Positions 16,727-61,567 of a DNA stretch of 64,000 bases are shown here, one piece after another. The notes beneath the pieces were generated by a model. That model made no database searches, was not told where the DNA came from, and saw nothing but the letters and a program-made list of their open reading frames with translations. The stretch covers positions 50,938-114,937 of the forward strand of contig OZ246416.1 of the NCBI GenBank assembly GCA_965231095.1. The letters run 5' to 3'. Origin of the DNA: an uncultured Gammaproteobacteria bacterium (GTDB lineage: Bacteria > Patescibacteriota > Patescibacteriia > XYB2-FULL-38-15). The position numbers and the translations under genes are program-made. Numbering within the stretch: the first letter of the stretch is position 1; each line of letters begins with the position of its first letter.

Positions 16727-16819
16727 AAAGAGAATAAGAAGTAAGGGTTTTTAAAGTCAAAATTCCTATTTTAGTTTTTTATAATGTAAGGGGGATTTTG
16801 ACTTTTGAGTTTTATAAAT

Positions 16820-27173: not shown

Positions 27174-28460
27174 ATGAAAAAATATTTTATTATTTCCTAC
27201 GGCTGCCAAATGAATAAGAGCGATTCCGAGCGAGTGGCGGCGGCGCTGGAAAAAATCGGTTATAAGCCCGCTCGGAGCGAAGCGCAGGCTGATTTGGTTG
27301 TGCTCGTAGCGTGCTCCGTGCGGCAGGCGGCGGTGGATCGGCTTTTTGGGAAAGCAAGAGAGTTGGCCAAACTTAAAACTCATAACTTAAAACTTAAAAC
27401 AGTTTTAACCGGTTGCGTTTTGCCGCAGGACAAGAAAAAATTTATAGGCAAATTTGATTTTATTTTAAATTTAGAAGATATCTCAAAATTAAAAAATCCA
27501 AAATCCAAGATACAAGATACTAAATACAAAATACTAAACACGGGCTATTTGCACCTTCAGCCGCGGCGTACGGAAAAATTTCGCGCTTACGTGCCGATTA
27601 TGACCGGCTGTAATAATTTTTGTTCATACTGCGCCGTGCCTTATGTCCGGGGAAGGGAAGCAAGCCGCCCAGCCGCCGAAGTCCTGGCCGAAATAAAAAA
27701 TTTAGCAAAAAATGGCTGCCTTGAGGTGACACTTCTTGGACAAAATGTAAATGCTTATCGGCCGAGTGACGTGAAAATTTTTTCCAAAAAAAATCCATAT
27801 AAGCATCCTTTTGCCGCGCTCTTATGGGAAGCAAATCAAACCCCGGGTATAGAGCGAATATTTTTTACCGCGCCGCATCCGCGCGATATGACGGACGATG
27901 TAATTCGCGCTCTGACTTTACCCAAAATGGTAAATTATTTGCATCTGCCGGTGCAGGCGGGCGATGATGAAGTTTTAAAACGGATGAATCGCCGTTATAC
28001 CGTGGCAGATTATTTAAAATTGGTGGCGAAAATAAAAAAGAAAAAACCGGGCATCGCGCTCGGCACGGATATTATTGTTGGATTTCCCGGCGAAACCAAA
28101 AAGGCGTTTCAAAATACTGTGGAACTTTATAAAAAAGCGGATTTTGATATCGCGTATCTGGCAATATACTCGCCACGGCAGGGGACAGCGGCAGCGAAAT
28201 TAGTTGATGATGTTCCGCGGCAAGAGAAAAAACGTCGGCGGGATATTTTGCAAAAGTTAATGGAGAAAATAGTTTTAGAAAAAAATCAAAAGTATGTCGG
28301 AAAGACAGTGTCAGTTTTGGTTGATAAATTTAAAAACGGCCAGTGTGTCGGTAATTCGCGGGAAATGAAAGTAGTACGATTTTCCGGAAAGAAAAATATG
28401 GTTGGGAAAATTTTTGAGGTTAAAGTTAAAAAAGCGTTGGAGTGGATTTTGGAAGGATAA
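27174..28460 (+). CDS. miaB: radical-SAM methylthiotransferase, MiaB/RimO family, with in-frame low-complexity insert
   Basis: MTTase N-domain YGCQMNKSDSE, radical SAM CNNFCSYC, C-terminal TRAM domain; tandem DNA repeats at 27375-27410 and 27490-27545 encode KLKTHNLKLKT and KSKIQDTKYKILNTG. Confidence 0.8.
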   Translation: MKKYFIISYGCQMNKSDSERVAAALEKIGYKPARSEAQADLVVLVACSVRQAAVDRLFGKARELAKLKTHNLKLKTVLTGCVLPQDKKKFIGKFDFILNLEDISKLKNPKSKIQDTKYKILNTGYLHLQPRRTEKFRAYVPIMTGCNNFCSYCAVPYVRGREASRPAAEVLAEIKNLAKNGCLEVTLLGQNVNAYRPSDVKIFSKKNPYKHPFAALLWEANQTPGIERIFFTAPHPRDMTDDVIRALTLPKMVNYLHLPVQAGDDEVLKRMNRRYTVADYLKLVAKIKKKKPGIALGTDIIVGFPGETKKAFQNTVELYKKADFDIAYLAIYSPRQGTAAAKLVDDVPRQEKKRRRDILQKLMEKIVLEKNQKYVGKTVSVLVDKFKNGQCVGNSREMKVVRFSGKKNMVGKIFEVKVKKALEWILEG

Positions 28461-28495
28461 AAAAAGGGCTCGCTTTGAGGTGGAGCCCGTACCAT
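28461..28495 (-). terminator. intrinsic terminator of island B operon (also downstream of miaB)
   Basis: Minus strand GGGCTCcacctcaaagcGAGCCCttttttt. Confidence 0.6.
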
Positions 28496-28505
28496 TTGCT
28501 GTCCG

Positions 28506-28754
28506 CTAGCCGATCCTTTGGACGACTTTGACATCGTGGATCTTCTGGACGTCGAACCAGTGAGTTGCTTCGCAGAGCGGTTTGTGGGGTTGATCGTACC
28601 CGCAGGGCAAGAGTTGGAAGATGTGACCATGGACCGTGATCACCTCGCCGATAAAAGCGTCCCATGGGTCGACCCACAATTGTTTTCCCTCTTTAGCCGT
28701 CTTCACAAAAGAGATCAACTTGCCGAGGTACCTTTCGGCCGATGCTTCAGCCAT
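28506..28754 (-). CDS. GC-rich island B gene 3: 83-aa soluble His/Cys-containing protein (hypothetical)
   Basis: MAEASAERYLGK...ITVHGHIFQLLPCGYDQPHKPLCEATHW; SD GAGGAGGAGG; start overlaps stop of upstream gene (gATGgcTGA). Confidence 0.55.
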   Translation of the reverse strand: MAEASAERYLGKLISFVKTAKEGKQLWVDPWDAFIGEVITVHGHIFQLLPCGYDQPHKPLCEATHWFDVQKIHDVKVVQRIG

Positions 28755-28980
28755 CGTCTTCCTCCTCCTCTTCTTCGCAGTTTTTCTTGCGGGCGCGGCG
28801 GAGAGATTCAGCCACGCAAATGACAAGGACGACGGTCATGCCGACAAGCACGGCGATCATGTAGGCCTTTCGCCAGAAGGTCAGTCCCTCGGCGGGAAGA
28901 ACCACAATGACGCCGATCACGCAGAGAATCGCGAGTAGGGCGAAGAACAGAGCGCGTAGCACGCTCCAGAGTTGTTTCAT
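28747..28980 (-). CDS. GC-rich island B gene 2: 77-aa two-TM membrane protein with poly-Glu/Asp C-terminal tail (holin-like topology)
   Basis: MKQLWSVLRALFFALLAILCVIGVIVVLPAEGLTFWRKAYMIAVLVGMTVVLVICVAESLRRARKKNCEEEEEEDDG; SD GGGGGGAG; ATGA start/stop overlap with gene 1. Confidence 0.55.
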   Translation of the reverse strand: MKQLWSVLRALFFALLAILCVIGVIVVLPAEGLTFWRKAYMIAVLVGMTVVLVICVAESLRRARKKNCEEEEEEDDG

Positions 28981-29210
28981 GGGCGTGACTCCCCCCAACG
29001 CCGCCGGGCGAAAAGCGATGCCACCGAGGTGCCGACAACCGAAAGAGCAATCCCGACGAAGCATCCAAGGATCACTTCCGTCTTCAGCTCTCCGAAGAGG
29101 TTGGTATGCGCCGCCAGGGGAATCGCCGCGGCCAGGGTGCATCCGATCAGGGCGAAGACGAGCAGACAACGGCCCGTCCTATCCTCACGTCGCGATTCTT
29201 CAAGAGTCAT
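28977..29210 (-). CDS. GC-rich island B gene 1: 77-aa two-TM membrane protein (holin/antiholin-like topology)
   Basis: MTLEESRREDRTGRCLLVFALIGCTLAAAIPLAAHTNLFGELKTEVILGCFVGIALSVVGTSVASLFARRRWGESRP; SD GGAGGAAG 2 nt before ATG. Confidence 0.55.
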   Translation of the reverse strand: MTLEESRREDRTGRCLLVFALIGCTLAAAIPLAAHTNLFGELKTEVILGCFVGIALSVVGTSVASLFARRRWGESRP

Positions 29211-29248
29211 GGCTTCCTCCTTTGCCACTTATAAGTTAATATAAAAAG

Positions 29249-30232
29249 ATGAAAGTGTCAAGAATTAAACCCCGCCTAAAGGCGGGACTCCGATCGGAGT
29301 ATAAATTGCCAAAACTAATTGTTATTTTAGGTCCGACGGCGTCGGGAAAGACGGGCTTGTCTTTGAAATTGGCAAAAAAATTTGGTGGAGAAATCGTGAA
29401 TGCCGACTCGCGGCAAGTTTATAAAAAAATGGATATTGGAACTGGAAAAGTTGAAAATAAAAAAGGAGTAAGGCATTATTTGTTGGACGTGGTCAATCCC
29501 GACGAAGAGTTTACTTTGGCAGGTTATAAAAAAAAAGCCGTGGCGGCGATTGACCATATTTTGAAACGTGGGAAAACCCCGTTTTTAGTCGGTGGCACTG
29601 GGTTATATATTCAAGCCATCGTGGACAACTTAACTATTCCCAGTGTTCCGCCGAATAAGAAACTTCGCACTGAATTCGAGCATGAACTGGCTAAAGCAAA
29701 AGAATTAGGAATTAAGAAGTATGAATTAAGAGTTTTGGAGAAGTGGTTTAAGAAATTATTAAAACTTGATCCTTGCGTAAAAGATGTAGTGGACGCTAAA
29801 AATCCGCGGAGAATAATTCGGGCGCTGGAAATTTGTCTTGCAACCGGCCGGCCGTTTTCAAAAATGCGGGGAAAGGGCGAGCCGTTGTTTCACGCGCTAC
29901 AACTTGGCATCACCATGCCGCGAGAAAAACTTTATAAAAATATTGATGATCGCGTAGACGAAATGATTAAAGACGGGTTAATAGAGGAGACAAAAAAATT
30001 ATTAAAAAAATATAATCCGAATATCCCATCAATGAGCGGGATTGGATATAAAGAAATAGGGGACTATCTGGGTGGAAGCTATGATTTAGATGAGGCGGCA
30101 GAGAAAATTAAATTTCGAACGCACGCGTACGCTCGGCGGCAGATGACGTGGTTCCGCCGTGGTAAAAGAATTAAGTGGATAAAAAATTATAAAGAAGCGG
30201 AACGAAAAATTGGTAAATGGCTAAATGGTTAA
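29249..30232 (+). CDS. miaA: tRNA dimethylallyltransferase; real start probably the SD-preceded TTG near 29309 (the first ~60 nt as tracked look like island B promoter/operator sequence)
   Basis: P-loop ILGPTASGKT, DSRQVYK motif; annotated N-terminal 20 aa are GC-rich and contain hairpins and the palindrome ACTCCGATCGGAGT. Confidence 0.8.
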   Translation: MKVSRIKPRLKAGLRSEYKLPKLIVILGPTASGKTGLSLKLAKKFGGEIVNADSRQVYKKMDIGTGKVENKKGVRHYLLDVVNPDEEFTLAGYKKKAVAAIDHILKRGKTPFLVGGTGLYIQAIVDNLTIPSVPPNKKLRTEFEHELAKAKELGIKKYELRVLEKWFKKLLKLDPCVKDVVDAKNPRRIIRALEICLATGRPFSKMRGKGEPLFHALQLGITMPREKLYKNIDDRVDEMIKDGLIEETKKLLKKYNPNIPSMSGIGYKEIGDYLGGSYDLDEAAEKIKFRTHAYARRQMTWFRRGKRIKWIKNYKEAERKIGKWLNG

Positions 30233-30284: not shown

Positions 30285-31850
30285 TTATGACAACTTCTTT
30301 TTAATAATTTCTTCGGCGACTTTTGGATTGGCCTTTCCTTGAGTTTTTTTCATTGTCTGGCCGATGAAGAATTGGAGAAGCGCTAGTTTACCTTGTTTAT
30401 ATTCCGCTACTTCCTCGGGATGTTCAGCGATCAGCGCGTCAATTATTTTTTCAAGTTCCCCGGTATCGCTAATTTGGCCAAGATTTTTACTTTCCATAAT
30501 CTGCGAAGGATCGCCGCCGGTCATCATCATTTCTTCAAGAATTTTTAAGGCCGTCGGACCGGAAATTTTATTTTGATAAATCATGGTGATAAATTCGGCA
30601 AAATTTTCCGGAGTGATTTTCAAGCGGCGAATATCAATTTTATTGTCCGCCATCAAACCGCCGAGTTTATTGATAAGCCATCCGGCGAGGAGGCGAACTA
30701 ATTTATGTTTATGCTTTTCCCAAATTTCTTTTTCCGTGCCTTCTACTTCTTCCAGCGACAAAAGCCATGACTGAAGTTCGGAAATAACGTTTTCCGCGTA
30801 GCTAGCTAATTTTTTATCTTCAACTAAAATTCGCGTTTCTTCTTCGGTAAATTCGTATTGAGTTATAAATCGGATTTTTTTGGCGCGCGGCAATTCGGGC
30901 AGATGGCCGATAACTTTATCGCGTAATTTACTTAAATCAAGTGGCGGCAAATCCGGTTCGGGAAAATAGCGATAATCATTTTCCGCTTCTTTGGTGCGCT
31001 GCGGAACGGTTTTCTGCCCCGCATCATCCCAGCCGCGAGTCGTCGTGACGGCCGGCGGTTTTCCGGCTTCCCAAAGTTCGGTTTGTCTTTTTATTTCATA
31101 CTCAAGCGCTCGCTCAACCGCCCGGAAAGAATTTAAATTTTTAATTTCCGTTTTCGCATTAAGTTTAAGAAGATTTTTTTCTTTAGCAGGATTATCCAAA
31201 GCTTCTCGAAGAGAAATATTGGCGTCGCAGCGGAGATGCCCCTTTTCCATATCGGCATCGGAAATTTCAAGATAGCGGGCAATGAGCCGCAATTCTTGCA
31301 TAAAAATTTTTGCTTCAAGTGGTGAATGCAAATCCGGTTCAGTGACAATCTCCAAAAGCGGCGTGCCGGAACGGTTGTAATCAATCAGGCTGTATTTTCC
31401 GTCTTCGCTATGGAAATTTTTAGCCGCGTCTTCTTCAAGATGGACGCGGTTGATTTTTATTTTTGCCCAAGGGCGTTGTTTTTTTTCATCCTTGGTCGGA
31501 ATATCAATTTCCAGAAATCCGCCCAGACAGACAGGTTTGTCGTATTGAGAAATTTGATAACCCTTTGGCAGATCAGGATAAAAATATTGTTTGCGGTCAA
31601 ATTTTGATTCATCTTGGATTTTACAATTCAAAGCCATGGCCAGAAGTCCCGCCCATTCGAGCGCCTGCTCATTTATGACTGGCAATGTGCCGGGATGGCC
31701 CATGCAGATCGGGCAGACGGTAGAGTTCGGCGGTTGGTCTTCGCCGGTATTGTCGCAACCGCAGAACATTTTTGATTTTGTTTTCAATTGGACATGGATT
31801 TCAAGCCCAATGACCGGGACGAGATGCATAAAAAATAATTCAAAAATCAA
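30285..31850 (-). CDS. gatB: aspartyl/glutamyl-tRNA amidotransferase subunit B
   Basis: VIGLEIHVQLKTKSKMFCGCDN...CPICMGHPGTLPV, GatB/YqeY C-terminal domain; start may be the internal Met (MHLVPVIGLE) at 31829. Confidence 0.9.
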   Translation of the reverse strand: MIFELFFMHLVPVIGLEIHVQLKTKSKMFCGCDNTGEDQPPNSTVCPICMGHPGTLPVINEQALEWAGLLAMALNCKIQDESKFDRKQYFYPDLPKGYQISQYDKPVCLGGFLEIDIPTKDEKKQRPWAKIKINRVHLEEDAAKNFHSEDGKYSLIDYNRSGTPLLEIVTEPDLHSPLEAKIFMQELRLIARYLEISDADMEKGHLRCDANISLREALDNPAKEKNLLKLNAKTEIKNLNSFRAVERALEYEIKRQTELWEAGKPPAVTTTRGWDDAGQKTVPQRTKEAENDYRYFPEPDLPPLDLSKLRDKVIGHLPELPRAKKIRFITQYEFTEEETRILVEDKKLASYAENVISELQSWLLSLEEVEGTEKEIWEKHKHKLVRLLAGWLINKLGGLMADNKIDIRRLKITPENFAEFITMIYQNKISGPTALKILEEMMMTGGDPSQIMESKNLGQISDTGELEKIIDALIAEHPEEVAEYKQGKLALLQFFIGQTMKKTQGKANPKVAEEIIKKKLS

Positions 31851-31885
31851 AAGTCAAAATGCAAAATTAATTTTGTAATAAAAAT

Positions 31886-40047: not shown

Positions 40048-40094
40048 AAATAAAATTCAAAAGTCAAAATTCAAAAGTCAAAAGTTTTGTAAAA

Positions 40095-42506: not shown

Positions 42507-42717
42507 TTAAACCTCTCCGCCCACGGCGGAAAATGAGGTGAAATTGGCTAATATTTATTAAGTTATTATAGCATAGATTATTTTGTAAAACAAGGGTTTA
42601 ATGTTTGACTTTTTATAATAAAAAAAGATAGGATAAAAGCGCTTCTCATGGCGAGAAGACCCGGGCCACGGGCAGTGGCAAATTACCTTCGGGCTTACAG
42701 TCCGGAAGGAGACAGAA

Positions 42718-43632
42718 ATGGCGAAGTATGAAAAGCTGAACCTGGGTCAGATTGAAGCGCTCGTGAACATCTTGGGTGGCATGGAGGTCGTGAAGAAGAT
42801 TCTTCGCGGGACGAAGAAGCCTCTTCCCCCGGACAAAGGCTTTCGGTCCCTTTTTGACAACTACGGCCGCCGCGTTGCGCCTCCTACGATGAGCGACAAG
42901 GGAGGAGCCGATCCGGAGGTGTGTTTGGCTCAGCCGGCGATGCATCTTCCACCGGGACCGGGAACAAGGTTCAAGGGTTTGTGCGAACGCCTTGGCTGGC
43001 AGAACCAGATGACTCCGGAAGAATTTCGCGCGCGGGTGGACAAGGCGGTAGAGAAGATCAACTTCGGCAGCATCAGAGAAGAGGTGAGGGGAATTTTGGG
43101 TGGTGTGTATCTGCCCTTTGGTCTTCCGCAGGTGACCTCCAGCGATTGCGGGGAGATCCTTGACGAACTCGGCTTGATCAATGCGGTTGAGCGTGTTTTC
43201 AAGGAAAGATTTCCCGAGGGGCAGTTTTTCGGACAAGAAAAATCCCTGAAGGGAGGCTTCCGCTTGATCGAAGGAAGTCGCCACGAGCGATTTTTGGAGG
43301 CCTTGACAAAGGAGCCGGTCGTTGCCATCTACTTCCCATTGGCGCTCCAAGGGTATTTGCCCGATAAGGCCGTCGAGCAGATGGAGAGCCTGCCGGAAGA
43401 GTTTCTGCTTTCCGGTGTGGTTGATACAGCGGCGGCGATCATGATGTATCCGGAAGTTCTACTTCGGGACACCTGCGTGCCGCAGCTCGGATGTTCGGCA
43501 GTGAAGCGCTGGGTGACCGGAGTTTCCTCATTCGATGTCAGTGACGGCAGCGACAAGATCACGCTCGCCTTCGGGGGGTGCCAGATCTTTGGGCGCGGCA
43601 AGTTTACTTCCGGCCTCACCGTCATCGCGTAG
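42718..43632 (+). CDS. GC-rich island C: hypothetical 304-aa protein, no recognisable domain
   Basis: ~60% GC; SD GGAAGGAGA 6 nt before ATG; TTGACT promoter-like element at 42605; downstream terminator 43695-43728. Confidence 0.6.
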   Translation: MAKYEKLNLGQIEALVNILGGMEVVKKILRGTKKPLPPDKGFRSLFDNYGRRVAPPTMSDKGGADPEVCLAQPAMHLPPGPGTRFKGLCERLGWQNQMTPEEFRARVDKAVEKINFGSIREEVRGILGGVYLPFGLPQVTSSDCGEILDELGLINAVERVFKERFPEGQFFGQEKSLKGGFRLIEGSRHERFLEALTKEPVVAIYFPLALQGYLPDKAVEQMESLPEEFLLSGVVDTAAAIMMYPEVLLRDTCVPQLGCSAVKRWVTGVSSFDVSDGSDKITLAFGGCQIFGRGKFTSGLTVIA

Positions 43633-43694
43633 TGCAGAGTCGTTGTGCCTTGAGTTAAACCCGATAAGGGTTTGATTCTTGGACGCTAGTCGTC

Positions 43695-43728
43695 TGAGCG
43701 GATCCCGTGCGGTCCGCTCTTTTTTATA
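43695..43728 (+). terminator. intrinsic terminator of island C
   Basis: GAGCGGAtcccgtgcggTCCGCTCtttttt. Confidence 0.65.
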
Positions 43729-43783
43729 TTCGCCCAGATTTCATTTTTTTGGTATAATATAAATGTAATTAAAATTATTTTTT

Positions 43784-44670: not shown

Positions 44671-45537
44671 ATGGACAACCAAAATCAGCCGGCGGATTTT
44701 ACCGAAAGCCAATTAAAAGTCGCTTCATGGTATGTCTCCCATAAAATTTTGTTGAAGAAAATTTTTATAGGTTTTTTGATTTTTTTGTGCGCGATTTTTT
44801 GGGGATTTGGGCTTTATGGTTTGATAAATTATTATTTTATTGAAGGTCCGAGTTTTAATTTGGCGATCAGAGAATTGAGCCGCGGAACGGATTATTCCAT
44901 TATCAATCAAAAAATTCAGCCAAAAGGCTTAGATATTGGAACAACGACAATTTTTTCTTCGGGAAAGGGGAGATATGATTTTGTGGGAAAGATTTTTAAT
45001 TCCTCCGCCGATTGGCGCGCGGAATTTACTTATGATTTTTTAGTGGATGGGGTGGCGCGAGCGGGGAAGAGCGGATTTATTTTGCCCGGCGAGGAAAAAT
45101 ATATTTTTGAACTTGGCGTGGAGGCGCCGGCAAAACCGCGTTCCGCGACTTTAGAAATTAAAGAGATAAAATGGCAGAGAATTGACGCCCACGAAATTTC
45201 CGATTACGCCGCCTGGCAGGACGAGCGCTTGAATTTTCCCGTGGCCGACGTGAAATTTACTCCGGCGGCGGTCGGAGAAAATATTCCGATAAGCCGAGCG
45301 TCTTTTACGGCGCGAAACGCGACAGCTTTCAGTTTTTGGGATGTGGGTTTTGCTATTTTTCTTTATCGCGGAAGTTCGGTTGCCAGCGTAAATTACGTGA
45401 CACTTGAGGAATTTCGTTCTGGACAAACCCGCCCGGTTGAAGTAAGTTGGTTTGAAACATTGCCAAGCATTACGCAAGTAAAAGTCGTACCGGAAGTGAA
45501 TATTTTTGATCCAAAAGTTTTCATGCCGGTGAATTAA
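44671..45537 (+). CDS. hypothetical membrane-anchored protein
   Basis: 288 aa, N-terminal TM region ILLKKIFIGFLIFLCAIFWGFGLYGLINYYF. Confidence 0.45.
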   Translation: MDNQNQPADFTESQLKVASWYVSHKILLKKIFIGFLIFLCAIFWGFGLYGLINYYFIEGPSFNLAIRELSRGTDYSIINQKIQPKGLDIGTTTIFSSGKGRYDFVGKIFNSSADWRAEFTYDFLVDGVARAGKSGFILPGEEKYIFELGVEAPAKPRSATLEIKEIKWQRIDAHEISDYAAWQDERLNFPVADVKFTPAAVGENIPISRASFTARNATAFSFWDVGFAIFLYRGSSVASVNYVTLEEFRSGQTRPVEVSWFETLPSITQVKVVPEVNIFDPKVFMPVN

Positions 45538-45621
45538 TTTAAAAGTCAAAGGTCAAAAATCAAAGGTCAAAAATTAAAGTCGAAATCCGAAATTTTGTCT
45601 TTTGAATTTTGACTTTTTGTT

Positions 45622-49650: not shown

Positions 49651-49692
49651 AAATCACCCGAGCGTTGCGTGCGATTGGGCGCGCAAAACTCG
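49651..49692 (-). terminator. intrinsic terminator of island D 197-aa gene
   Basis: Minus strand CACCCGAGttttgcgcgcccaatcgcacgcaacgCTCGGGTGattttttat. Confidence 0.6.
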
Positions 49693-49706
49693 GGTGTGAC
49701 GGTCGG

Positions 49707-50297
49707 TTACGGGGAAGTGATGTCCTTCGTCCCGTCGTAGGGATCGCCGGAGTCGGCGGAATCGTCGGCGGGCGGCGCAGCGGGCGAGACGACCTCGACT
49801 TCCTCCTCGATGTCCTCGGCCACCACGACCGTGGTTTCCGGCGCGTCTTCGAGGATCTCGACCATCTTCATCGCCTGGCGCACACAGGCCGACAGCTCGG
49901 CGGTGGAGAAGGCGTAGGAGAGTTGTTCGAAGGTAACCCGGCGTCCTGGTTCCGTGTCCTTCGACATCCAGTGTTCGATCAGCTTGGCGAGATCATCGTC
50001 GGAGACGCGTTTCAGGATCTCCTCGATCGCGGATTTTGCGCCGTTCTCGATACCGCCGAGCATCGCCTGGCGCATGATGGGCACGGTGTCTTTCTTGTCA
50101 CCGGGCCAGATCCCGAGTAGATCGCCAACGATCTTCTCGAAGGTGTGCACTTGGGCAATGTGAGCCAGGCCGCTGGCCCGGCTCAAATTGATGTGGTGCA
50201 AGATGATCCAGATGTTCAGGACGCCGAGATCCACGAAGTGCTGGAGCATCGCCGCTAGCGTCAACTTCTTGTCTCTTTCCTTCTTGGATTCCGCCAT
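49707..50297 (-). CDS. GC-rich island D gene 2: hypothetical ~197-aa protein (helical, acidic C-terminal tail)
   Basis: MAESKKERDKKLTLAAMLQHFVDLGVLNIWIILHH...; ~62% GC; minus-strand promoter cTTGACAa-N17-TAAGGT at 50342-50370; 5' UTR palindrome CTCCGATTAATCGGAG. Confidence 0.55.
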   Translation of the reverse strand: MAESKKERDKKLTLAAMLQHFVDLGVLNIWIILHHINLSRASGLAHIAQVHTFEKIVGDLLGIWPGDKKDTVPIMRQAMLGGIENGAKSAIEEILKRVSDDDLAKLIEHWMSKDTEPGRRVTFEQLSYAFSTAELSACVRQAMKMVEILEDAPETTVVVAEDIEEEVEVVSPAAPPADDSADSGDPYDGTKDITSP

Positions 50298-50382
50298 TGT
50301 CTTCCACTCGCTCCGATTAATCGGAGTCCTTTCTATCCGCACCTTAGTTTAAAAAATAAAATTTGTCAAGATAAAAAAAGAG

Positions 50383-50445
50383 CCCGTGGATTGCTTGGAG
50401 TTGGGGCACGGGACGTGTCTCCAAAGCAATCCACGGGCTGGGTGA
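50383..50445 (-). terminator. long-stem intrinsic terminator after island D zinc-ribbon gene
   Basis: agcccgtggattgcttggag...ctccaaagcaatccacgggct ~20-bp stem followed on minus strand by ctcttttttt. Confidence 0.6.
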
Positions 50446-50608
50446 TGCCCAGCGGGTGCCGTGAGGCTGGCCGGCTGGGCTCAGTCGCGTGACCCGCCCG
50501 GGGGGTAGGAGGGCACCGGGGAGCCGACGCGAGCTTGGGGAACGGAGAGTTCTCGAGCGAACTCGCAAACTCTCACGTTATTGGTGGGTAAGTTACAGGC
50601 GGGTCTTG

Positions 50609-50881
50609 TCAGGGTCGGGGGCAGTTCCGGACGACATGCATTCGCTTGCGCCTGGCGCGGGCGACGCCGTCCGTGTACTTCTTGCCCTTGCGTTCGGCGA
50701 AAGTGTGCATCGAGCAGTAGTGCCCGGTATTCCCGCTACGGAGAATCGTTCCACAGTCGGGTTCCTGGCATCGCCGCGGCTTGCCATCGTCGGTGCTCCG
50801 ACCGCTGTCGTGCACGTCGCCGAGCGAATTGGCGCCGACCGTGCCGGTACCCTGATCCATTCCGAGCGCGCTCCAGTCCAT
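50609..50881 (-). CDS. GC-rich island D gene 1: 90-aa Cys/His-cluster (zinc-ribbon-like) protein, possibly nucleic-acid binding
   Basis: ...RRCQEPDCGTILRSGNTGHYCSMHTF...; SD GGAGGAGGAAGG before ATG; 5' UTR hairpin ccttgcgt..acgcaagg. Confidence 0.55.
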   Translation of the reverse strand: MDWSALGMDQGTGTVGANSLGDVHDSGRSTDDGKPRRCQEPDCGTILRSGNTGHYCSMHTFAERKGKKYTDGVARARRKRMHVVRNCPRP

Positions 50882-51004
50882 CCTTCCTCCTCCTCAACCT
50901 TCCCTATTATCAACTCGTCCTGTCCACCAGGCCGAGGCTTAGGGCCACCTTCCTTGCGTTTTGACGCGTGCCAATAACGCAAGGCCACCCTGTTTGTTGA
51001 TTTT

Positions 51005-51065
51005 AGAATATAATAAAAAGCTTAATTTGTCAACCCCTTGACAAATTTTAAGATTGTGGTAGAGT
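51005..51065. promoter_or_regulatory. divergent sigma70-type promoter pair with palindromic overlapping -35 boxes (TTGTCAAccccTTGACAA)
   Basis: Plus: TTGACA(51038-43)-N16-TAGAGT(51060-65). Minus: TTGACA-N16-TATTCT (plus agaata 51005-10). Perfect inverted repeat ttgtcaa/ttgacaa around cccc. Confidence 0.55.
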
Positions 51066-51071
51066 GTTCTG

Positions 51072-51388
51072 TAGGGTAATGGGGAGTCCTGTTTGGTTGA
51101 TGCCGGCAGCGCACCGGCGTCGTGGGCAGTCATTTTTTGCTTCACTCTGAATCCGGAACCCTTGGCTGGTGAACAGCGCGTTGTAGCGCGGCTGGCCTTG
51201 TGGCGAAGGACCCACGGAGTGGCCCGACAGGAACCCGGTTCGCGAGCTGCCCGTTAAGCAGACGTGGGCTGAAATCTCCCCAGCGCATCTGATCCTCCAA
51301 GTCCGCTTCGGCGGGCACGGAGGTCACCATTCTTTGCACACCGCTGCATTTCGCGTTGTGCCCGTCGGTCGAACACCCTGTTCGACCG
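51072..51388 (+). ncRNA. candidate ~320-nt GC-rich structured non-coding RNA of unknown class, driven by the island D plus-strand promoter and ending in a strong intrinsic terminator
   Basis: No plus-strand ORF with SD; CCGCuucgGCGG UUCG tetraloop hairpin, several GC stems; terminator GTCGGTCGAACaccctGTTCGACCGACtctttttt at 51354-51388. Confidence 0.45.
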
Positions 51389-51394
51389 ACTCTT

Positions 51395-51418
51395 TTTTAT
51401 ATAAAAAACCGGCCTTGC
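51395..51418 (-). terminator. intrinsic terminator of prfA
   Basis: Minus strand CCGGCCgcaaGGCCGGtttttt, preceded by cccgactaaagtcggg hairpin. Confidence 0.6.
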
Positions 51419-51489
51419 GGCCGGAGGGAACGGAGTCCCGACTTTAGTCGGGTTATACATTGCCCACCCTGAAGAGTGGACTCCAAAAT

Positions 51490-52863: not shown

Positions 52864-52925
52864 AAAATAGATTATTTATTTACATTAATCTTAATTTAAC
52901 ATAAGGCCGTGAGTTTGGCAAGGGG

Positions 52926-52956
52926 TTGACAAAATTACGGGGTGGAGTAATAAGAT
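52926..52956 (+). promoter_or_regulatory. sigma70-type promoter of island E (TTGACA ... TAAGAT)
   Basis: ggggTTGACAaaattacggggtggagtaaTAAGATgag. Confidence 0.5.
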
Positions 52957-52987
52957 GAGTAGGGGTTGCCACAAAAGGAGGTGTTCT

Positions 52988-53224
52988 ATGGCAAGAAGAA
53001 GTTGGAGTTTCGAGCATCGGGGTACGGAAGGCGTCATCAAGACGCCTGACGGGGAGCACGTCGTCCATTCCAAAGAGGAGGCCAAGCGGCACTTGCAAGA
53101 GGGTGCACACCTGAAATATATCAGCTCTTCGATTGCCGGCCCTACCCTCGCGGAGCGGGACGAGGCCAGGGAATGGAGAGAGGCGGTGAGGCAGGTCAAT
53201 GAGTCCAGCCTTCCCGACAAGTAG
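52988..53224 (+). CDS. GC-rich island E: hypothetical 78-aa protein
   Basis: MARRSWSFEHRGTEGVIKTPDGEHVVHSKEEAKRHLQEG...; SD aaaGGAGGtgttctATG; terminator 53233-53285 with nested tccga-gaaa-tcgga hairpin. Confidence 0.55.
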   Translation: MARRSWSFEHRGTEGVIKTPDGEHVVHSKEEAKRHLQEGAHLKYISSSIAGPTLAERDEAREWREAVRQVNESSLPDK

Positions 53225-53232
53225 TCGGACAT

Positions 53233-53285
53233 CGGTTGTGTTGGTCGGCAGGAAATCCGAGAAATCGGAGAGTACTGCCGGCCGT
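53233..53285 (+). terminator. intrinsic terminator of island E with nested GAAA-tetraloop hairpin
   Basis: GTCGGCAGgaaaTCCGAgaaaTCGGAgagtaCTGCCGGCcgttttttt. Confidence 0.6.
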
Positions 53286-53621
53286 TTTTTTATTTTCAAA
53301 AATCTCTCCCCCTCCTTTCGAAGGAGGGGTTAGGGGTGGTTTTTAAAAACTCCCACCCCACCTAACCTCCCCTCGGGCAGGGGAGGAATATTGAGCATTT
53401 GCCCTTGCCCCCACACCAATTTCAGCGAGGCCATTTTTATCCGAGTTTAAAATAAAAAAATTGGTGTGGGGGCTTGCATTATTTTTGCTTTTGTGTAAAA
53501 ATAGATGAAAGTCATTTATTAATAGTAATCCCACATGTTTTGCCTTTAAAACTTGTTCCTGATCCCCGCCACTGCGGGGACCCGCAAGTTTTGGCAAAAC
53601 AGAGGTTAAAAAGGAAAATTT

Positions 53622-54407: not shown

Positions 54408-54536
54408 TTCAATTGAAGTAATTAGTAATTGGTAATTAGTGCAGAACCACCCCCAACCCCCTCCTTCTAAAGGAGGGGAAAATGGTGGTTGAAATTACTC
54501 GTTGCCCGTTACGCGTTACTCGTTACTTATAAACAT

Positions 54537-58813: not shown

Positions 58814-59622
58814 AAAATCCATATCAAACAGAGTCCGTAAAAATTTTAAAGATTGAGGACGAAGGTTCGCGTTCTCGGCTTTTTACGCTCGCCGCGCCGC
58901 GCGGATTTAAGGTTAAAAGTGGACAGTTCGTGGAAATTTCTTTGCCGGGATTTGGCGAGGCGCCGATTTCACTTTGTTCTGATCCGTTGGAAAAAAATAA
59001 ATTTGAATTGTGCGTCCGAAAAGCGGGAATGGTGACGGGCGCTCTGCACAAAATGAAAGTTGGCGACAAAGTCGGAGTGCGCGGCCCGTACGGCCGGCCG
59101 TTTCCGGTGGAACTTGGAAAAAAAAGAAATTTACTTTTGGTGGCCGGCGGATTGGGTTTGGAACCATTACGTCCAGCGATTTGGGAAATTATGAAAAACC
59201 GCGAGCAGTTTCAAAAAGTCCAAATTTTTTACGGCGCTTGCGACGAGAATGATTTGCTTTTTGCGAAAAATTACGACGAGTGGAAGAAAAAAATTGATTT
59301 ACATATTACCCTTGATAAACCAAGGGGCGGCAAAACTCCGGTGGCTTGCGGCACGGGCGTTGTCACCACACTTTTTGATCACGTAAAACTTTATAAAAAA
59401 CCGGTGGCGTTTTTGTGCGGTCCGCCCGTGATGTATAGATTTGTCATTAAAAAATTAAAAGAATTAAATTTTGAAGATAGCGATATATATTTATCGCTCG
59501 AGCGGCGGATGCATTGCGGCATCGGCGTTTGTAATCACTGCGCCGTCGGGAGTTTTTTTGTCTGCCAGGACGGTCCGGTTTTTTCTTGGGCGGAATTGAA
59601 AGATATTCGCGGCGCGATATAA
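58810..59622 (+). CDS. sulfhydrogenase gamma subunit-like FAD/NAD(P)-binding oxidoreductase with C-terminal 2Fe-2S motif
   Basis: Ferredoxin-NADP reductase-like fold, C-terminal CGIGVCNHCAV. Confidence 0.7.
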   Translation: MKNPYQTESVKILKIEDEGSRSRLFTLAAPRGFKVKSGQFVEISLPGFGEAPISLCSDPLEKNKFELCVRKAGMVTGALHKMKVGDKVGVRGPYGRPFPVELGKKRNLLLVAGGLGLEPLRPAIWEIMKNREQFQKVQIFYGACDENDLLFAKNYDEWKKKIDLHITLDKPRGGKTPVACGTGVVTTLFDHVKLYKKPVAFLCGPPVMYRFVIKKLKELNFEDSDIYLSLERRMHCGIGVCNHCAVGSFFVCQDGPVFSWAELKDIRGAI

Positions 59623-59659
59623 ACCTGACAATTAACAGTTGACAATTAACAATTAACAG

Positions 59660-60565
59660 TTGACTATGAAAAATAAAGGATATTTTTTGGTTTTAGGAAC
59701 GGCGATAATTTCCGGCGTTTCTATTTTTGTAAATCAGTTTGGCGTTAAAGTTATCAATTCGGATATTTTTACCGGTTTGAAAAATATAGTGGTGGCCGTA
59801 ATTTTGTTGTGTCTTATTTTTTGGTTTAAAGAATGGAAGTTATTGGCAAAATTAAAAATCAAGGAATGGCTGACTTTGGTTTTAATCGGTTTGGTCGGCG
59901 GCAGCATTCCGTTTTTACTTTTCTTCAAGGGCCTGGCCGCGACAAGCGGAGCGAGCACGTCTTTTATTCATAAAACTTTATTTATTTATGTAATAATTTT
60001 GGCGGCGCTGTTTTTGAAAGAAAAAATAAGTAAAAATTTAGCGATCGGCGCGGCCTTGCTTTTGCTCGGCAATGTGGCGCTCTTGAAAATTTTTAATGGA
60101 TTTCAATTCGGTTATGGCGAGTTATTGGTTTTGTTTGCTACGCTGTTTTGGGCGGCGGAACAAATTATTTCTAAGCGGGCGCTTCAAGATATTTCTCCGA
60201 AAATTGTCGCTTGGGGCAGAATGTTTTTCGGATTTTTATTTATTTTTATTTTTTGGGCGGCGACGGGTCAGTTGAAATTGCTGGGCGGGGTGGGAGCGGC
60301 GGAATTAAGTTGGGTTTGGATTACAGCCGTTTTTCTTTTAGGCTATGTTTTAACTTGGTATTCTGGCTTGAAATATATAAAAGTTTCAACCGCGGCGTGT
60401 ATTTTATCTTTAGGCGCGCCAATTACCAGCTTGCTTGAAATGGCGCAAAAAGGAATTTTTGATTGGCAGATTTTTCTCGGGAGTTTGTTGATGTTTGCGG
60501 GAGTAATTTTAGCGGTAGATTTATTTTCACGGATTAAAATGGCGGCAACAAACGCGATCCGTTAA
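59660..60565 (+). CDS. EamA/DMT superfamily transporter, flanked by ~35-bp inverted repeats
   Basis: 10 TM helices in two EamA-like halves; flanking caattaacagttgacaattaac (59629-59663) and its reverse complement (60561-60597). Confidence 0.65.
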   Translation: MTMKNKGYFLVLGTAIISGVSIFVNQFGVKVINSDIFTGLKNIVVAVILLCLIFWFKEWKLLAKLKIKEWLTLVLIGLVGGSIPFLLFFKGLAATSGASTSFIHKTLFIYVIILAALFLKEKISKNLAIGAALLLLGNVALLKIFNGFQFGYGELLVLFATLFWAAEQIISKRALQDISPKIVAWGRMFFGFLFIFIFWAATGQLKLLGGVGAAELSWVWITAVFLLGYVLTWYSGLKYIKVSTAACILSLGAPITSLLEMAQKGIFDWQIFLGSLLMFAGVILAVDLFSRIKMAATNAIR

Positions 60566-60599
60566 CTGTCAACTGTTAATTGTTAACTGTTTATTTACC

Positions 60600-60833
60600 A
60601 TGTGTTTTGGTGTCCCTTGTAAAATTGAAAAAGTAAATAAAAATAAAGCCACCATAAAAAATGGCGGCAAAGTTTTTGATATAGACACCTCGCTCTTGCC
60701 AAAAATAAAAAAAAATGATTGGATATTGGTGCAGGGCAATATTGGAATGAAGCAAATATCGGAGGATGAAGCAAAAAGTTGCCTTGCCGTTTTGGACGAA
60801 TTCCAAAGTAAAGAGGGGAAGGGAGGACTGTGA
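60600..60833 (+). CDS. hypC: [NiFe]-hydrogenase maturation chaperone HypC/HupF family
   Basis: N-terminal MCFGVPCKI (MCxxxP signature), ~77 aa. Confidence 0.75.
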   Translation: MCFGVPCKIEKVNKNKATIKNGGKVFDIDTSLLPKIKKNDWILVQGNIGMKQISEDEAKSCLAVLDEFQSKEGKGGL

Positions 60834-61567
60834 TGGAGAGAACATACGCAAGAGCGGCGCGCTACGCGCTCTATCCGAACATGCTCGGGCTTTGCGGGCC
60901 GCGCGGAAGGGGCAAGGAAAAACTCTACGAGTATTTGACTCTCAAGACCAAGGTGGACGACCAAGAGGCGAGGGAATTACTCGAGCAATTCACCGCGGCC
61001 ACGGCCTACATGAAACTGATTGCCGCGGCAAACGAGATTCCGGACTGGCTGGATCCGAGGGTGGTTGACGCCTACTGGATTGGAAACGACCTTTTGAACC
61101 TTGTCCGCGCCGAGGATCTGAAGGAATTGATCCATGGTCTCGTTCTAGCAGGAAAGCTTGCCGAGTCCGCGGCGGAAGAAGCGATTGCCCGTGTCCACCG
61201 CGATCATCGTCCGCACCATAGCTTCCATGTTTTTGTGATCGGCGGACTTTCCGGCCAAGTGGAGCGCGGGTCAATCGGCTGGGAACTTTGCCGTATCGGC
61301 TGGGGGACGGTCGCCCGCGTCAAGCATGACGGCAACCTCACAGTTTTGGCAGAGTCTTTGTTGCAAAAGGGCGGCAAGATTTTTCCTGAACTTGAGGGAG
61401 TGGAAAGAGAGCGGCTCATCAGGCGCGACCGGGAACTTTTCCCACGCGTTTCCTCTGGTGACCTCGTTGCTTTCCACTGGGGCAGAGTGGTTGAAATTAT
61501 TGACCACGACGCAGCACGGCGGCTGGACTATTGGACCGAACGGACGCTCCGGCACTGCAGACTGTAG
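60833..61567 (+). CDS. GC-rich island F: hypothetical 244-aa protein inserted in the hydrogenase cluster directly after hypC
   Basis: ~60% GC; SD AAGGGAGG; start overlaps hypC stop (gtgATGg); terminator 61593-61625 AGACTAGCttttaggGGCTAGTCttttttt. Confidence 0.55.
   Translation: MERTYARAARYALYPNMLGLCGPRGRGKEKLYEYLTLKTKVDDQEARELLEQFTAATAYMKLIAAANEIPDWLDPRVVDAYWIGNDLLNLVRAEDLKELIHGLVLAGKLAESAAEEAIARVHRDHRPHHSFHVFVIGGLSGQVERGSIGWELCRIGWGTVARVKHDGNLTVLAESLLQKGGKIFPELEGVERERLIRRDRELFPRVSSGDLVAFHWGRVVEIIDHDAARRLDYWTERTLRHCRL

What the first reader, a model, noticed from the sequence alone, without database searches (positions are those of the whole stretch)
42600..43730. Island C: isolated GC-rich 304-aa ORF with no recognisable fold next to gyrB
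Strong SD, promoter-like TTGACT element, SD-sequestering 5' UTR hairpin (ccttc...gaagg overlapping GGAAGGAG) and clean terminator. Protein has no motifs I can place (features a C-terminal GGCQIFGRGKFTSGLTVIA). It is the largest single protein among the islands and a candidate enzymatic component of the set.
Basis: seen in the sequence. Interest (0 to 1): 0.55.

Follow-up and report, generated by a model that had tools for sequence, protein, structure and literature searches.

The report
Orphan hypermutation-target lectin-fold gene with conserved leader
The GC-rich 304-aa gene beside gyrB is real. It belongs to an unannotated Patescibacteria family whose relatives are the hypermutated "variable proteins" of diversity-generating retroelements, but this copy has no retroelement within 64 kb and carries a conserved, previously uncatalogued structured leader RNA.

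Summary
"No recognisable fold" and "candidate enzyme of a set" do not hold.

- **Family.** There are no Pfam, NCBIfam, PHROG, PADLOC or PDB-sequence hits. A profile search still finds 580 clusters.
- **Relatives are DGR targets.** In four related loci (L009, L010, L144, L150) homologues (31-38% identical where scored) sit next to a DGR reverse transcriptase (with bAvd in L144 and L150). Their last ~40 codons match a template repeat that differs almost only at adenines.
- **This copy looks orphaned.** The window has no TR or RT. A 94%-identical strain variant is barely changed in the VR-equivalent segment.
- **Allele swap.** The CDS core is about 44% identical to syntenic alleles whose flanking genes are 54-91% identical. 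This suggests allelic replacement between the conserved ends.
- **New RNA elements.** A three-hairpin 5' leader (11 of 20 pairs covary, not in Rfam) and a 3' hairpin accompany most stand-alone family genes examined (not detected at L012 or L150).

Best reading: a fixed-specificity ligand-binding protein descended from DGR targets, under leader-mediated translational control. The ligand is unknown.

The parts
42605..42634 (+). Sigma-70-type promoter: TTGACT, 18 nt, TAGGAT
   Evidence: 9 of 12 matches. The -35 box is invariant in alignment A2 and present upstream of the leader in L008, L009, L010, L026, L083 and L091. The transcription start is inferred to lie just before hairpin P1; it has not been measured.
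42638..42713 (+). Conserved structured 5' leader RNA with three hairpins. P1 is 42642-42658, P2 is 42665-42679 (GCCAC-GGGCA-GUGGC), and P3 is 42686-42709, whose 3' arm overlaps the SD.
   Evidence: Covariance model R1 scores 96 bits (E about 1e-19) and gives the only strong hit in the window with filters off; the next best scores 16.6 bits, E 0.048. On 13 leaders, 94.6% of cells pair against 36-54% in slid controls, and 11 of 20 pairs change on both sides. There is no Rfam match. Nucleotide identity to L008 is 88%, against 61% for the CDS.
42704..42711 (+). Shine-Dalgarno GGAAGGAG, partly inside the 3' arm of P3
   Evidence: Sequence and fold. In L091 the SD lies outside P3, so occlusion is common but not universal.
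42718..43632 (+). CDS of 304 aa. It has an N-terminal helical module (about residues 1-35), an LFD.HGR.PP motif (45-56), and a core domain (about 100-304) with a C-type-lectin-like C-terminal half.
42820..43611 (+). Divergent core of the CDS, where colinear nucleotide alignment with the syntenic relatives L005, L006 and L008 breaks. Only 43310-43482 aligns, at about 72-73%.
   Evidence: Protein identity is 43-46% to the L003, L005 and L008 alleles, although those are 74-83% identical to each other. Flanking genes are 54-91% identical.
43501..43608 (+). VR-equivalent segment (residues about 262-297), homologous to the adenine-mutagenised variable repeat of DGR-linked relatives
   Evidence: Alignments. 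TR/VR pairs in L009, L010, L144 and L150. No matching TR in the window. Only 4 of 36 residues differ in the 94%-identical variant P0158.
43609..43634 (+). IMH-like conserved 3' end of the CDS (TCCGGCCTCACCGTCATCGCGTAGTG), encoding SGLTVIA plus the stop codon
   Evidence: Nearly identical (two synonymous third-position differences in the SGL codons) in the window, L003, L005 and L008 despite the divergent CDS. It corresponds to the TR/VR-identical end ...GGCGGGCTCGTCGTCCTCGGG of L009 and L010, followed in the VR copies by TAGTG. Its function as an IMH is inferred.
43645..43686 (+). Conserved long imperfect 3' UTR hairpin (GUGCC UU GAGUUAAACCC GAUAA GGGUUUGAUUC UU GGAC)
   Evidence: RNAalifold on 7 loci gives 23 pairs in the whole 3' UTR consensus, 5 with compensatory changes. 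The 3' UTR is 91% identical to L008. It sits where the inverted repeat downstream of the IMH lies in DGR targets (PMC5758913); that equivalence is inferred.
43696..43725 (+). Intrinsic terminator (9-bp stem, 6 GC pairs, then TTTTTT)
   Evidence: Conserved in L003, L005 and L008.

Best explanation
The ORF encodes a stand-alone member of an unannotated protein family of Patescibacteria. The family's characterisable relatives are the variable (target) proteins of diversity-generating retroelements. These are ligand-binding proteins whose C-terminal C-type-lectin-like domain displays about 40 hypermutable residues.

In this genome the copy appears DGR-orphaned, so it most likely acts as a cytoplasmic ligand-binding protein of fixed specificity. 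It has no signal peptide or transmembrane segment by inspection of the sequence. The ligand is unknown.

**Expression (inferred).** Transcription starts at a sigma-70-type promoter. The mRNA begins with a conserved three-hairpin leader whose third hairpin occludes the SD, so translation is probably gated by this leader, through a bound factor or a metabolite. The mRNA ends with a conserved long hairpin and an intrinsic terminator. The conserved last 25 nt of the CDS plus that hairpin correspond in position to the IMH and inverted repeat that DGRs use to recognise targets.

**Evolution (inferred).** The divergent CDS core between conserved ends, at a conserved chromosomal slot, is best explained by allelic replacement. 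Homologous recombination in the conserved leader/N-terminus and the C-terminus/3' UTR would swap in a distant family allele. The family-wide high GC reflects membership of the horizontally exchanged flexible gene pool.

**Shown:** the ORF and its signals, family membership, DGR linkage of relatives, leader and trailer conservation with covariation, and the divergence pattern.
**Inferred:** ligand binding, translational gating, orphan status beyond the 64 kb, and the recombination mechanism.
For: **Family**
- 8 close homologues and 580 50%-identity clusters by profile search, 315 of them at E<=1e-30.

**DGR linkage of homologues**
- L144 has two tandem family genes, then a TR, bAvd and RVT_1. 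VRs at 5610-5742 and 6870-7002 match the TR at 7377-7509.
- L009 and L010 have a TR about 400-480 nt downstream plus an RT carrying the IGNLTSQ motif.
- L150 has a TR, bAvd and RVT_1.
- TR-to-VR differences fall at TR adenines in 16/16, 24/24, 17/18, 21/22 and 10/11 cases.

**Fold**
- AF2 pLDDT 80, pTM 0.81.

**Orphan status**
- No repeat of the 3' end anywhere in the window.
- No RT or Avd by tblastn.
- P0158, 94% identical, differs at 4/36 VR-equivalent residues against 14/268 elsewhere.
- The L005 and L008 alleles are no more divergent in the VR than overall, and they show synonymous third-position changes there.
- CPR DGRs usually have one adjacent target, and remote targets belong to another lineage (PMC5758913).

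**Leader and trailer**
-.

**Allelic replacement**
- Flanking genes are 54-91% aa identical to L003, L005 and L008, while the target is 42-44%.
- The L003, L005 and L008 alleles are 74-83% identical to each other, and the nearest allele (55%) lies in a different context, L004 beside uvrC.
- Alignment breakpoints fall at 42819 and 43612.

**Literature fit**
- CPR DGR targets typically lack recognisable domains and probably carry novel C-type-lectin variants (PMC8144416).
Against: - Only 64 kb of a genome whose largest reported contig is 886 kb was searchable, so a remote DGR cannot be excluded. The strong nucleotide conservation of the IMH-like end and 3' hairpin could mean the site is still used.
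- The same domain is also fused to, or encoded beside, radical SAM/SPASM enzymes in sugar-biosynthesis clusters. A catalytic or enzyme-accessory role is therefore not excluded.
- No ligand, partner or expression data exist.
- Leader function is untested, and in L091 the SD is not inside P3.
- GC-richness is not explained mechanistically. In DGR loci the target gene is GC 0.50-0.68 while its own RT and avd are 0.35-0.40, which does not fit simple co-transfer from a GC-rich donor.
Confidence: 0.62

Rival explanations
1. The gene is still an active DGR target, diversified in trans by a DGR elsewhere in the genome (largest reported contig 886 kb). The conserved IMH-like end and 3' hairpin would be its functional target-recognition site.
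For: Homologues are genuine cis targets. The last 25 nt of the CDS and the 3' hairpin are conserved at the nucleotide level even at most synonymous sites. DGR components can act in trans, and non-adjacent targets exist (PMC5758913).
Against: There is no TR, RT or Avd in 64 kb. The VR-equivalent segment is almost unchanged in a 94%-identical strain. The syntenic clade L003, L005 and L008 shows no excess VR divergence and has ordinary synonymous changes there. Codons in the segment are not dominated by the NNC pattern seen in the active VRs. [quoted passage not shown]
Confidence: 0.17
2. The protein is an enzyme or an obligatory enzyme partner. It could act on a sugar or nucleotide-sugar, as suggested by the domain's fusion to radical SAM/SPASM enzymes.
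Against: There is no radical SAM partner or sugar genes next to the stand-alone Patescibacteria genes. The stand-alone clade is the one linked to DGRs, and DGR targets are binding proteins. Across the whole family the invariant positions are mostly G, P, L and F.
Confidence: 0.1
3. It is an intracellular invader sensor, that is, a defence or conflict-system component. The lectin-like domain would recognise a phage or host molecule, and the N-terminal module would signal.
For: The core domain replaces the C-terminal region in a bSEFIR/TIR protein (P0133; PADLOC bSEFIR 1.1e-57 for the N-terminal domain). It is also fused to a possible PD-(D/E)xK-like N-terminal domain in P0095; that assignment is from reading the sequence and has no Pfam hit. 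The pattern of allelic hypervariability at a fixed slot, GC anomaly and DGR diversification in relatives fits this. DGR-diversified lectin sensors in conflict systems are described in PMC10907252.
Against: PADLOC gives no hit for the target itself. No effector domain is recognisable in it, and no defence genes neighbour it. This reading overlaps with, rather than excludes, the best explanation.
Confidence: 0.1

Closest known systems
DGR variable proteins with a C-type-lectin fold (Bordetella phage Mtd; Treponema denticola TvpA, PDB 2y3c; the CPR 'clade 2' DGR targets of Roux et al. 2021)
   Different: No TR, RT or Avd within 64 kb, and no VR-restricted variation. No Pfam FGE-sulfatase or DUF1566 signature. 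It carries a family-specific N-terminal helical module and a conserved structured 5' leader, which I did not find described for DGR targets in the papers I consulted.
Radical SAM/SPASM domain-containing proteins of about 630 aa (for example Rhodocyclus gracilis, P0213) in sugar or flagellin-glycosylation-type clusters
   Same: Their C-terminal ~290 residues are homologous to nearly the whole target protein (profile positions 2-297; 220-295 bits).
   Different: The target lacks the radical SAM/SPASM half and has no sugar-pathway neighbours. Those genes have no leader motif. They were not checked for a TR/VR; the annotated neighbouring genes include no RT or Avd.
SD-sequestering translational leaders and small pseudoknot riboswitches (for example preQ1-I, guanidine-III)
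   Same: It is a short (~76 nt) conserved leader with covarying helices. Loop and junction sequence is nearly invariant (CCC..GCCAC-GGGCA-GUGGC-AAA), and a hairpin occludes the SD.
   Different: No Rfam family matches even at E<=10. It is tied to a single protein family, which is more typical of autoregulatory protein-binding leaders. No ligand or alternative fold has been shown. It is paired with an equally conserved 3' UTR.
bSEFIR single-gene anti-phage defence proteins
   Same: One family member (P0133) has a bSEFIR/TIR N-terminal domain fused to the same core domain.
   Different: The target has no SEFIR/TIR domain and no PADLOC hit.

Membership tests
DGR variable (target) protein | Sequence homology to proteins whose 3' end is a VR paired with a TR | tested here: met
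   Homologues in L009, L010, L144 (two genes) and L150 have TR/VR pairs. Identity to the target is 31-38% where scored.
DGR variable (target) protein | A cognate template repeat in the same genome differing from the VR only at adenines | tested here: not met
   No repeat of 43463-43657 anywhere in the 64-kb window. The rest of the genome was not available.
DGR variable (target) protein | DGR reverse transcriptase (IGxxxSQ motif) and Avd nearby | tested here: not met
   tblastn of four related RTs and one Avd against the window gives nothing below E 0.5.
DGR variable (target) protein | C-type-lectin fold carrying the VR at the C-terminus | tested here: inconclusive
DGR variable (target) protein | IMH at the VR 3' end followed by an inverted repeat | tested here: inconclusive
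   A conserved 25-nt CDS end and a conserved 3' hairpin are present. Without a TR, the IMH/IMH* pairing cannot be defined.
DGR variable (target) protein | Variation between close strains concentrated in the VR | tested here: not met
   P0158 (94% identical) differs at 4/36 VR-equivalent residues against 14/268 elsewhere. L005 against L008 is 81% in the VR against 83% overall.
Structured cis-regulatory leader RNA | Conserved secondary structure supported by covariation, in a fixed position relative to the gene | tested here: met
   13 leaders: 94.6% of cells paired against 36-54% in slid controls, and 11 of 20 pairs changed on both sides, 0/500 shuffles reaching this. The leader is always immediately 5' of the family gene.
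Structured cis-regulatory leader RNA | Membership of a described Rfam family | tested here: not met
   No match at gathering score or at E<=10 on 42560-43780.
Riboswitch | Ligand-dependent alternative folding that controls the SD or a terminator | not testable with these tools
   Only an SD-occluding P3 and a possible CCC/GGG pseudoknot are seen by inspection. No ligand is known.
FGE-sulfatase (PF03781) / DUF1566 lectin-type Pfam families common in DGR targets | Pfam profile match | tested here: not met
   No Pfam hit at E<=1 for the target. None of the 50 family members scanned matches these families.
Radical SAM/SPASM-associated C-terminal domain proteins | Fusion to, or translational coupling with, a radical SAM/SPASM enzyme in a sugar cluster | tested here: not met
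   The target's neighbours are gyrB and two unannotated ORFs. Fusion or coupling is seen only in proteobacterial relatives.
Known anti-phage defence systems (PADLOC) | Profile match to a defence protein model | tested here: not met
   No PADLOC hit at E<=1. Only the fusion protein P0133 hits bSEFIR, through its N-terminal domain.

The most novel reading that the evidence does not exclude
The conserved 5' leader (P1-P3 with a near-invariant CCC..GCCAC-GGGCA-GUGGC-AAA core) and the 3' hairpin together form a new RNA module dedicated to this family of variable-protein genes in Patescibacteria. It could be a riboswitch or an autoregulatory protein-binding element that gates production of the variable protein. 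In addition, the conserved ends may serve as recombination anchors, letting whole receptor alleles be swapped at fixed chromosomal slots. That would be a cassette-exchange route to receptor diversity operating alongside, or after the loss of, DGR hypermutation. The one other GC-rich island ORF compared across genomes (49707-50297) shows the same pattern of a divergent core at a conserved slot.
Probability: 0.25. Interest if true: 0.75.

Novelty: new member of a known kind. Interest (0 to 1): 0.5.

Why it matters
**Placing a 'hypothetical' family.** DGR targets of candidate-phyla-radiation bacteria are numerous but mostly lack recognisable domains. This places a 'hypothetical' family of at least 580 clusters among them.

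**What the family shows**
- The family also has DGR-less members kept at conserved chromosomal slots.
- The same domain has been recruited by radical SAM/SPASM sugar-pathway enzymes and by a SEFIR/TIR defence-type protein.
- Most stand-alone genes examined carry an uncatalogued structured leader RNA and a conserved 3' element.

**What becomes testable**
- Which RNA and DNA signals mark a DGR target.
- How expression of variable proteins is controlled.
- Whether tiny-genome epibionts diversify receptors by allele swapping as well as by hypermutation.

**Practical use.** The leader model (R1) and the protein profile could be used to annotate these genes.

Tried and rejected
1. **Standard libraries.** Pfam, NCBIfam, PHROGs, PADLOC and PDB sequence searches found nothing for the target.
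2. **Foldseek.** Searches against PDB and BFVD found nothing significant. The afdb50 library was not available.
3. **Word-index homologue search.** It gave only 8 hits and wrongly suggested a tiny family. The exhaustive profile search corrected this.
4. **The search for related loci.** It failed with the broad alignments and worked only with six close sequences.
5. **Collection scans with CCACGGGCAGTGGCAAA.** They mostly hit Walker-A (PTGSGK) coding sequence.
6. **Leader shared by other islands.** I tested whether the leader is a signal shared by the other GC-rich islands. It is not: only one hit in the window with filters off.
7. **GC-richness from DGR mutagenesis.** I tested whether it reflects A-to-G-biased DGR mutagenesis spread over the gene. 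This was rejected. The apparent asymmetry came from comparing with minus-strand gyrB. Against same-strand neighbours, G and C rise symmetrically.
8. **Cis DGR in the window or syntenic relatives.** None was found.
9. **Integron attC or MITE-like explanation for the conserved ends.** Considered by inspection only and dropped. The gene has its own promoter, is single-copy, and lies between housekeeping genes.
10. **N-terminal module.** It resembles a HeH/SAP motif by eye, but no profile supports this, so I do not rely on it.
11. **Literature.** Searches for GC-rich hypervariable islands in Patescibacteria and for the radical SAM fusion found nothing relevant.
Full report
**1. The observation**

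The ORF runs from ATG 42718 to TAG 43632 on the + strand and encodes 304 aa with the quoted C-terminus. Its GC is 0.567 (GC3 0.685). gyrB, nusG, L11, L25, ftsW and the two downstream ORFs have GC 0.41-0.48, and the window mean is 0.438. The GC-rich run spans 42651-43750.

- TTGACT-18-TAGGAT promoter at 42605-42634
- GGAAGGAG SD at 42704-42711
- the ccttc...gaagg hairpin at 42686-42709
- a 9-bp-stem terminator followed by TTTTTT, at 43696-43725

Taken alone, the promoter match and the leader fold are no better than chance: about one promoter match is expected by chance, and the fold has z = -1.04. Their reality rests on the comparative evidence in section 3. The identical locus occurs in independent assemblies. 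The genome is a Patescibacteria MAG.

**2. The protein family**

Pfam, NCBIfam, PHROGs, PADLOC and PDB sequence searches give nothing. The word-indexed search found only 8 homologues. An exhaustive profile search of 1.84 billion representatives found 580 clusters at E<=1e-3 and 315 at E<=1e-30. This is a real, diverse and unannotated family.

The typical architecture has three parts:
- one or two copies of a ~30-aa helical module (KY..LT.GQ.EAL.N.LGG....IL.G)
- an LFD.HGR.IP motif
- a ~200-aa core that ends in a poorly conserved ~35-aa stretch followed by a conserved ...SGGL(V/L)V(L/I)(G/A) tail

- Legionella Lcl
- FGE-type domains of OvoA, EgtB, SUMF2 and PvdO
- invasin and intimin
- dozens of animal C-type lectins

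**3. Conserved ends around a divergent core**

Relatives L003, L005/L006 and L008 keep the same neighbourhood: gyrB, then this gene, a 289-aa ORF, a 288-aa ORF, ftsW, L25 and DUF3048.

- Flanking proteins are 54-91% identical to the window's, but this protein is only 42-44% identical.
- The L003, L005 and L008 alleles are 74-83% identical to each other.
- The window's nearest relative (55%) lies in a different context, next to uvrC (L004).
- Nucleotide alignment with L005 and L008 runs colinearly from gyrB to 42819. It then breaks, leaving only a 72-73% island at 43310-43482, and resumes at 43610-43612.
- The 5' leader is 88% identical to L008 and the 3' UTR is 91%, against 61% for the CDS.

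I read this as replacement of the CDS core by a distant family allele, with crossovers in the conserved ends. That is an inference. Gradual acceleration in this one lineage is the alternative.

**4. The leader RNA**

Upstream of most stand-alone family genes I could examine there is a TTGAC promoter followed by three hairpins. This includes genes only 33-39% identical, in different genomic contexts.

- A covariance model built from seven leaders finds one hit per stand-alone family gene at E<=0.004, in every stand-alone locus searched except L011, L012 and L150 (two hits in L144).
- At E<=0.5 it finds no hit in the proteobacterial radical SAM fusion loci L139, L140 and L142. The split-form loci L146-L149 give only weak minus-strand hits at E 0.09-0.25. 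In the rest of the window with filters off, the next best hit scores 16.6 bits, E 0.048.
- On 13 distinct leaders, 94.6% of cells pair, against 36-54% when partners are slid by 1-3 columns. 11 of 20 pairs show changes on both sides: 6 of 6 in P1, 2 in P2 and 3 in P3. No shuffle out of 500 reaches this. The alignment is model-fitted, but P1 covariation is obvious in the raw MAFFT alignment.
- P2 and its surroundings (CCC-N2-GCCAC-GGGCA-GUGGC-AAA) are nearly invariant.
- By inspection, CCC could pair with the loop GGG as a compact pseudoknot, or with the CGGG of the P3 5' arm. That would be a switch-like arrangement, but it is speculation.
- P3 overlaps the SD in most loci, though not in L091.
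- Rfam has no match.

**5. The 3' end**

The last 25 nt of the CDS are nearly identical in the window, L003, L005 and L008; only two synonymous third-position differences occur, in the SGL codons. The following UTR forms a long imperfect hairpin (43645-43686) with compensatory changes across loci, ahead of the terminator.

**6. The DGR link**

Four related loci carry a complete DGR immediately downstream of a family gene.

| Locus | DGR components | TR-to-VR differences at TR adenines |
|---|---|---|
| L144 | two tandem family genes, TR 7377-7509, bAvd, RVT_1 | 17/18 and 21/22 |
| L009 (Candidatus Falkowbacteria) | TR and an RT with IGNLTSQ | 16/16 |
| L010 | TR and an RT with IGNLTSQ | 24/24 |
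| L150 | TR, bAvd, RVT_1 | 10/11 |

The exceptions include the stop codon. The VR is the last ~40 codons. This is exactly the poorly conserved stretch of the family alignment, and the invariant tail is the TR/VR-identical end.

**7. Is this copy diversified?**

Probably not.

- There is no TR-like repeat of 43463-43657 anywhere in the window.
- There is no RT or Avd.
- The same holds for the syntenic relatives, within the flanks available.
- A 94%-identical strain variant (P0158) differs at 4 of 36 VR-equivalent residues and 14 of 268 others.
- L005 and L008 are as similar in the VR-equivalent segment as elsewhere, and they show ordinary synonymous changes there.
- CPR DGRs usually have one adjacent target.

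Only 64 kb could be searched, out of a genome whose largest reported contig is 886 kb. I therefore keep about 17% for an active remote target.

**8. Other architectures of the domain**

- About 90 clusters of ~630-aa radical SAM/SPASM proteins (Rhodocyclus, Zoogloeaceae, Hydrogenophilus and others) carry the whole domain at their C-terminus. They sit in clusters with NeuB, a TPP enzyme, a C-methyltransferase, NUDIX, an epimerase, further radical SAM enzymes and glycosyltransferases, once beside fliD and fliE.
- In L146 and L148 the domain is a separate 267-aa gene overlapping the stop of the radical SAM gene.
- One member has a bSEFIR/TIR N-terminus. Another has a possible PD-(D/E)xK-like N-terminus, assigned only from reading the sequence.

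These suggest a generic ligand-recognition module. They also keep open, at low probability, a catalytic or accessory role.

**9. Composition**

Family genes are GC-rich relative to their hosts in most loci. In DGR loci they are GC 0.50-0.68 while their own RT and avd are 0.35-0.40. I tested whether this reflects A-to-G-biased DGR mutagenesis. Against same-strand neighbours, G and C rise symmetrically at third positions, so it does not.

The other GC-rich islands of the window share the symmetric enrichment. The one island ORF compared across genomes (49707-50297) shows the same pattern of a hyperdivergent core at a conserved slot. I found no functional or sequence link between the islands and this gene. 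The cause of the GC bias remains unexplained. Candidates are a horizontally exchanged gene pool or recombination-associated GC-biased conversion.

**10. Verdict**

The interpretation as a foldless candidate enzyme belonging to a set is not supported.

The gene is a DGR-orphaned member of a new family of lectin-fold variable proteins. It is expressed from its own promoter, under a conserved and previously uncatalogued structured leader, and it was apparently exchanged as an allele between conserved ends. In kind it is known (a DGR-type variable protein). The family definition, the leader and trailer RNA, the DGR-less clade and the radical SAM and SEFIR fusions are new details of moderate interest.

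Noticed in passing
window 49660-50400 (ORF 49707-50297, minus strand): A second GC-rich single-gene island with its own TTGACA promoter and terminator. Its 196-aa product is only 26-31% identical to the syntenic ORF in L003 and L008, while the flanking prmC, prfA and L31 are 70-98% identical. It has no Pfam hit. This is the same pattern of a hyperdivergent core at a conserved slot seen in the target.
   Followed up: partly
window 50400-51460 (ORF 50609-50881, minus strand): A GC-rich (up to 0.66) island with a 90-aa Cys-rich ORF behind a TTGACA promoter near 51030. It also contains a ~350-nt GC-rich stretch (51050-51400) with no convincing ORF and no Rfam hit. Parts of the non-coding flanks are 79-83% conserved in L003.
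   Followed up: partly
window 60600-61567: A HypC/HupF-like 77-aa ORF (Pfam 2.8e-14) is immediately followed by a GC-rich 245-aa DUF6390 protein (1.8e-40). No other hydrogenase genes were noticed in the window.
   Followed up: partly
window 28451-29300 and 52880-53330: Two further GC-rich patches (0.54-0.61) lie between housekeeping genes (miaB-like/miaA and L31/rpsB). They contain only short overlapping ORFs. One encodes a possible small membrane protein (28747-29169, minus strand; weak holin/toxin-like Pfam hints at E about 0.01).
   Followed up: partly
window 40054-40085, 45536-45581, 31823-31868, 16753-16784: An AT-rich repeat (AAAAGTCAAAATTCAAAAGTCAAAAGT and variants) recurs in intergenic regions in both orientations (D1, D18, I11). 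Its function is unknown.
   Followed up: no
window 59617-59664 and 60561-60595: 35-nt inverted repeats rich in AATTAACAGTTGAC flank the 301-aa membrane-protein gene at 59660-60565 (I5, I7).
   Followed up: no
window 53309-53336 and 54451-54478: Matching CCCCTCCTT...AAGGAGGGG palindromic elements flank rpsB (I23). Similar GGGAGAGGG-type palindromes occur upstream of the family gene in L009.
   Followed up: no
L139 10001-11974; L140 10001-11896; L142 10001-11890; L146 4874-6804; L148 4877-6804: Radical SAM/SPASM proteins are fused to, or translationally coupled with, the same domain. They sit in conserved NeuB/TPP-enzyme/C-methyltransferase/NUDIX/epimerase/B12-radical-SAM/glycosyltransferase clusters, once next to fliD and fliE. 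The C-terminal domain has no annotation.
   Followed up: partly
L144 4798-8914: Two tandem family genes, each with its own copy of the leader RNA, are diversified from a single TR. Two serine recombinases and a Fic protein lie just upstream, suggesting a mobile context.
   Followed up: partly
proteins P0133 and P0095 (no loci): The core domain alone (from about residue 100) is fused to a bSEFIR/TIR domain (P0133). In P0095 it is fused to an N-terminal domain with a possible PD-(D/E)xK-like motif, read by eye and with only weak PADLOC hits.
   Followed up: partly
L009, L010, L144, L150: In DGR loci the target gene is much more GC-rich (0.50-0.68) than its own RT and avd (0.35-0.40) and than the host contig (0.41-0.47). 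This argues against simple co-transfer from a GC-rich donor and remains unexplained.
   Followed up: partly
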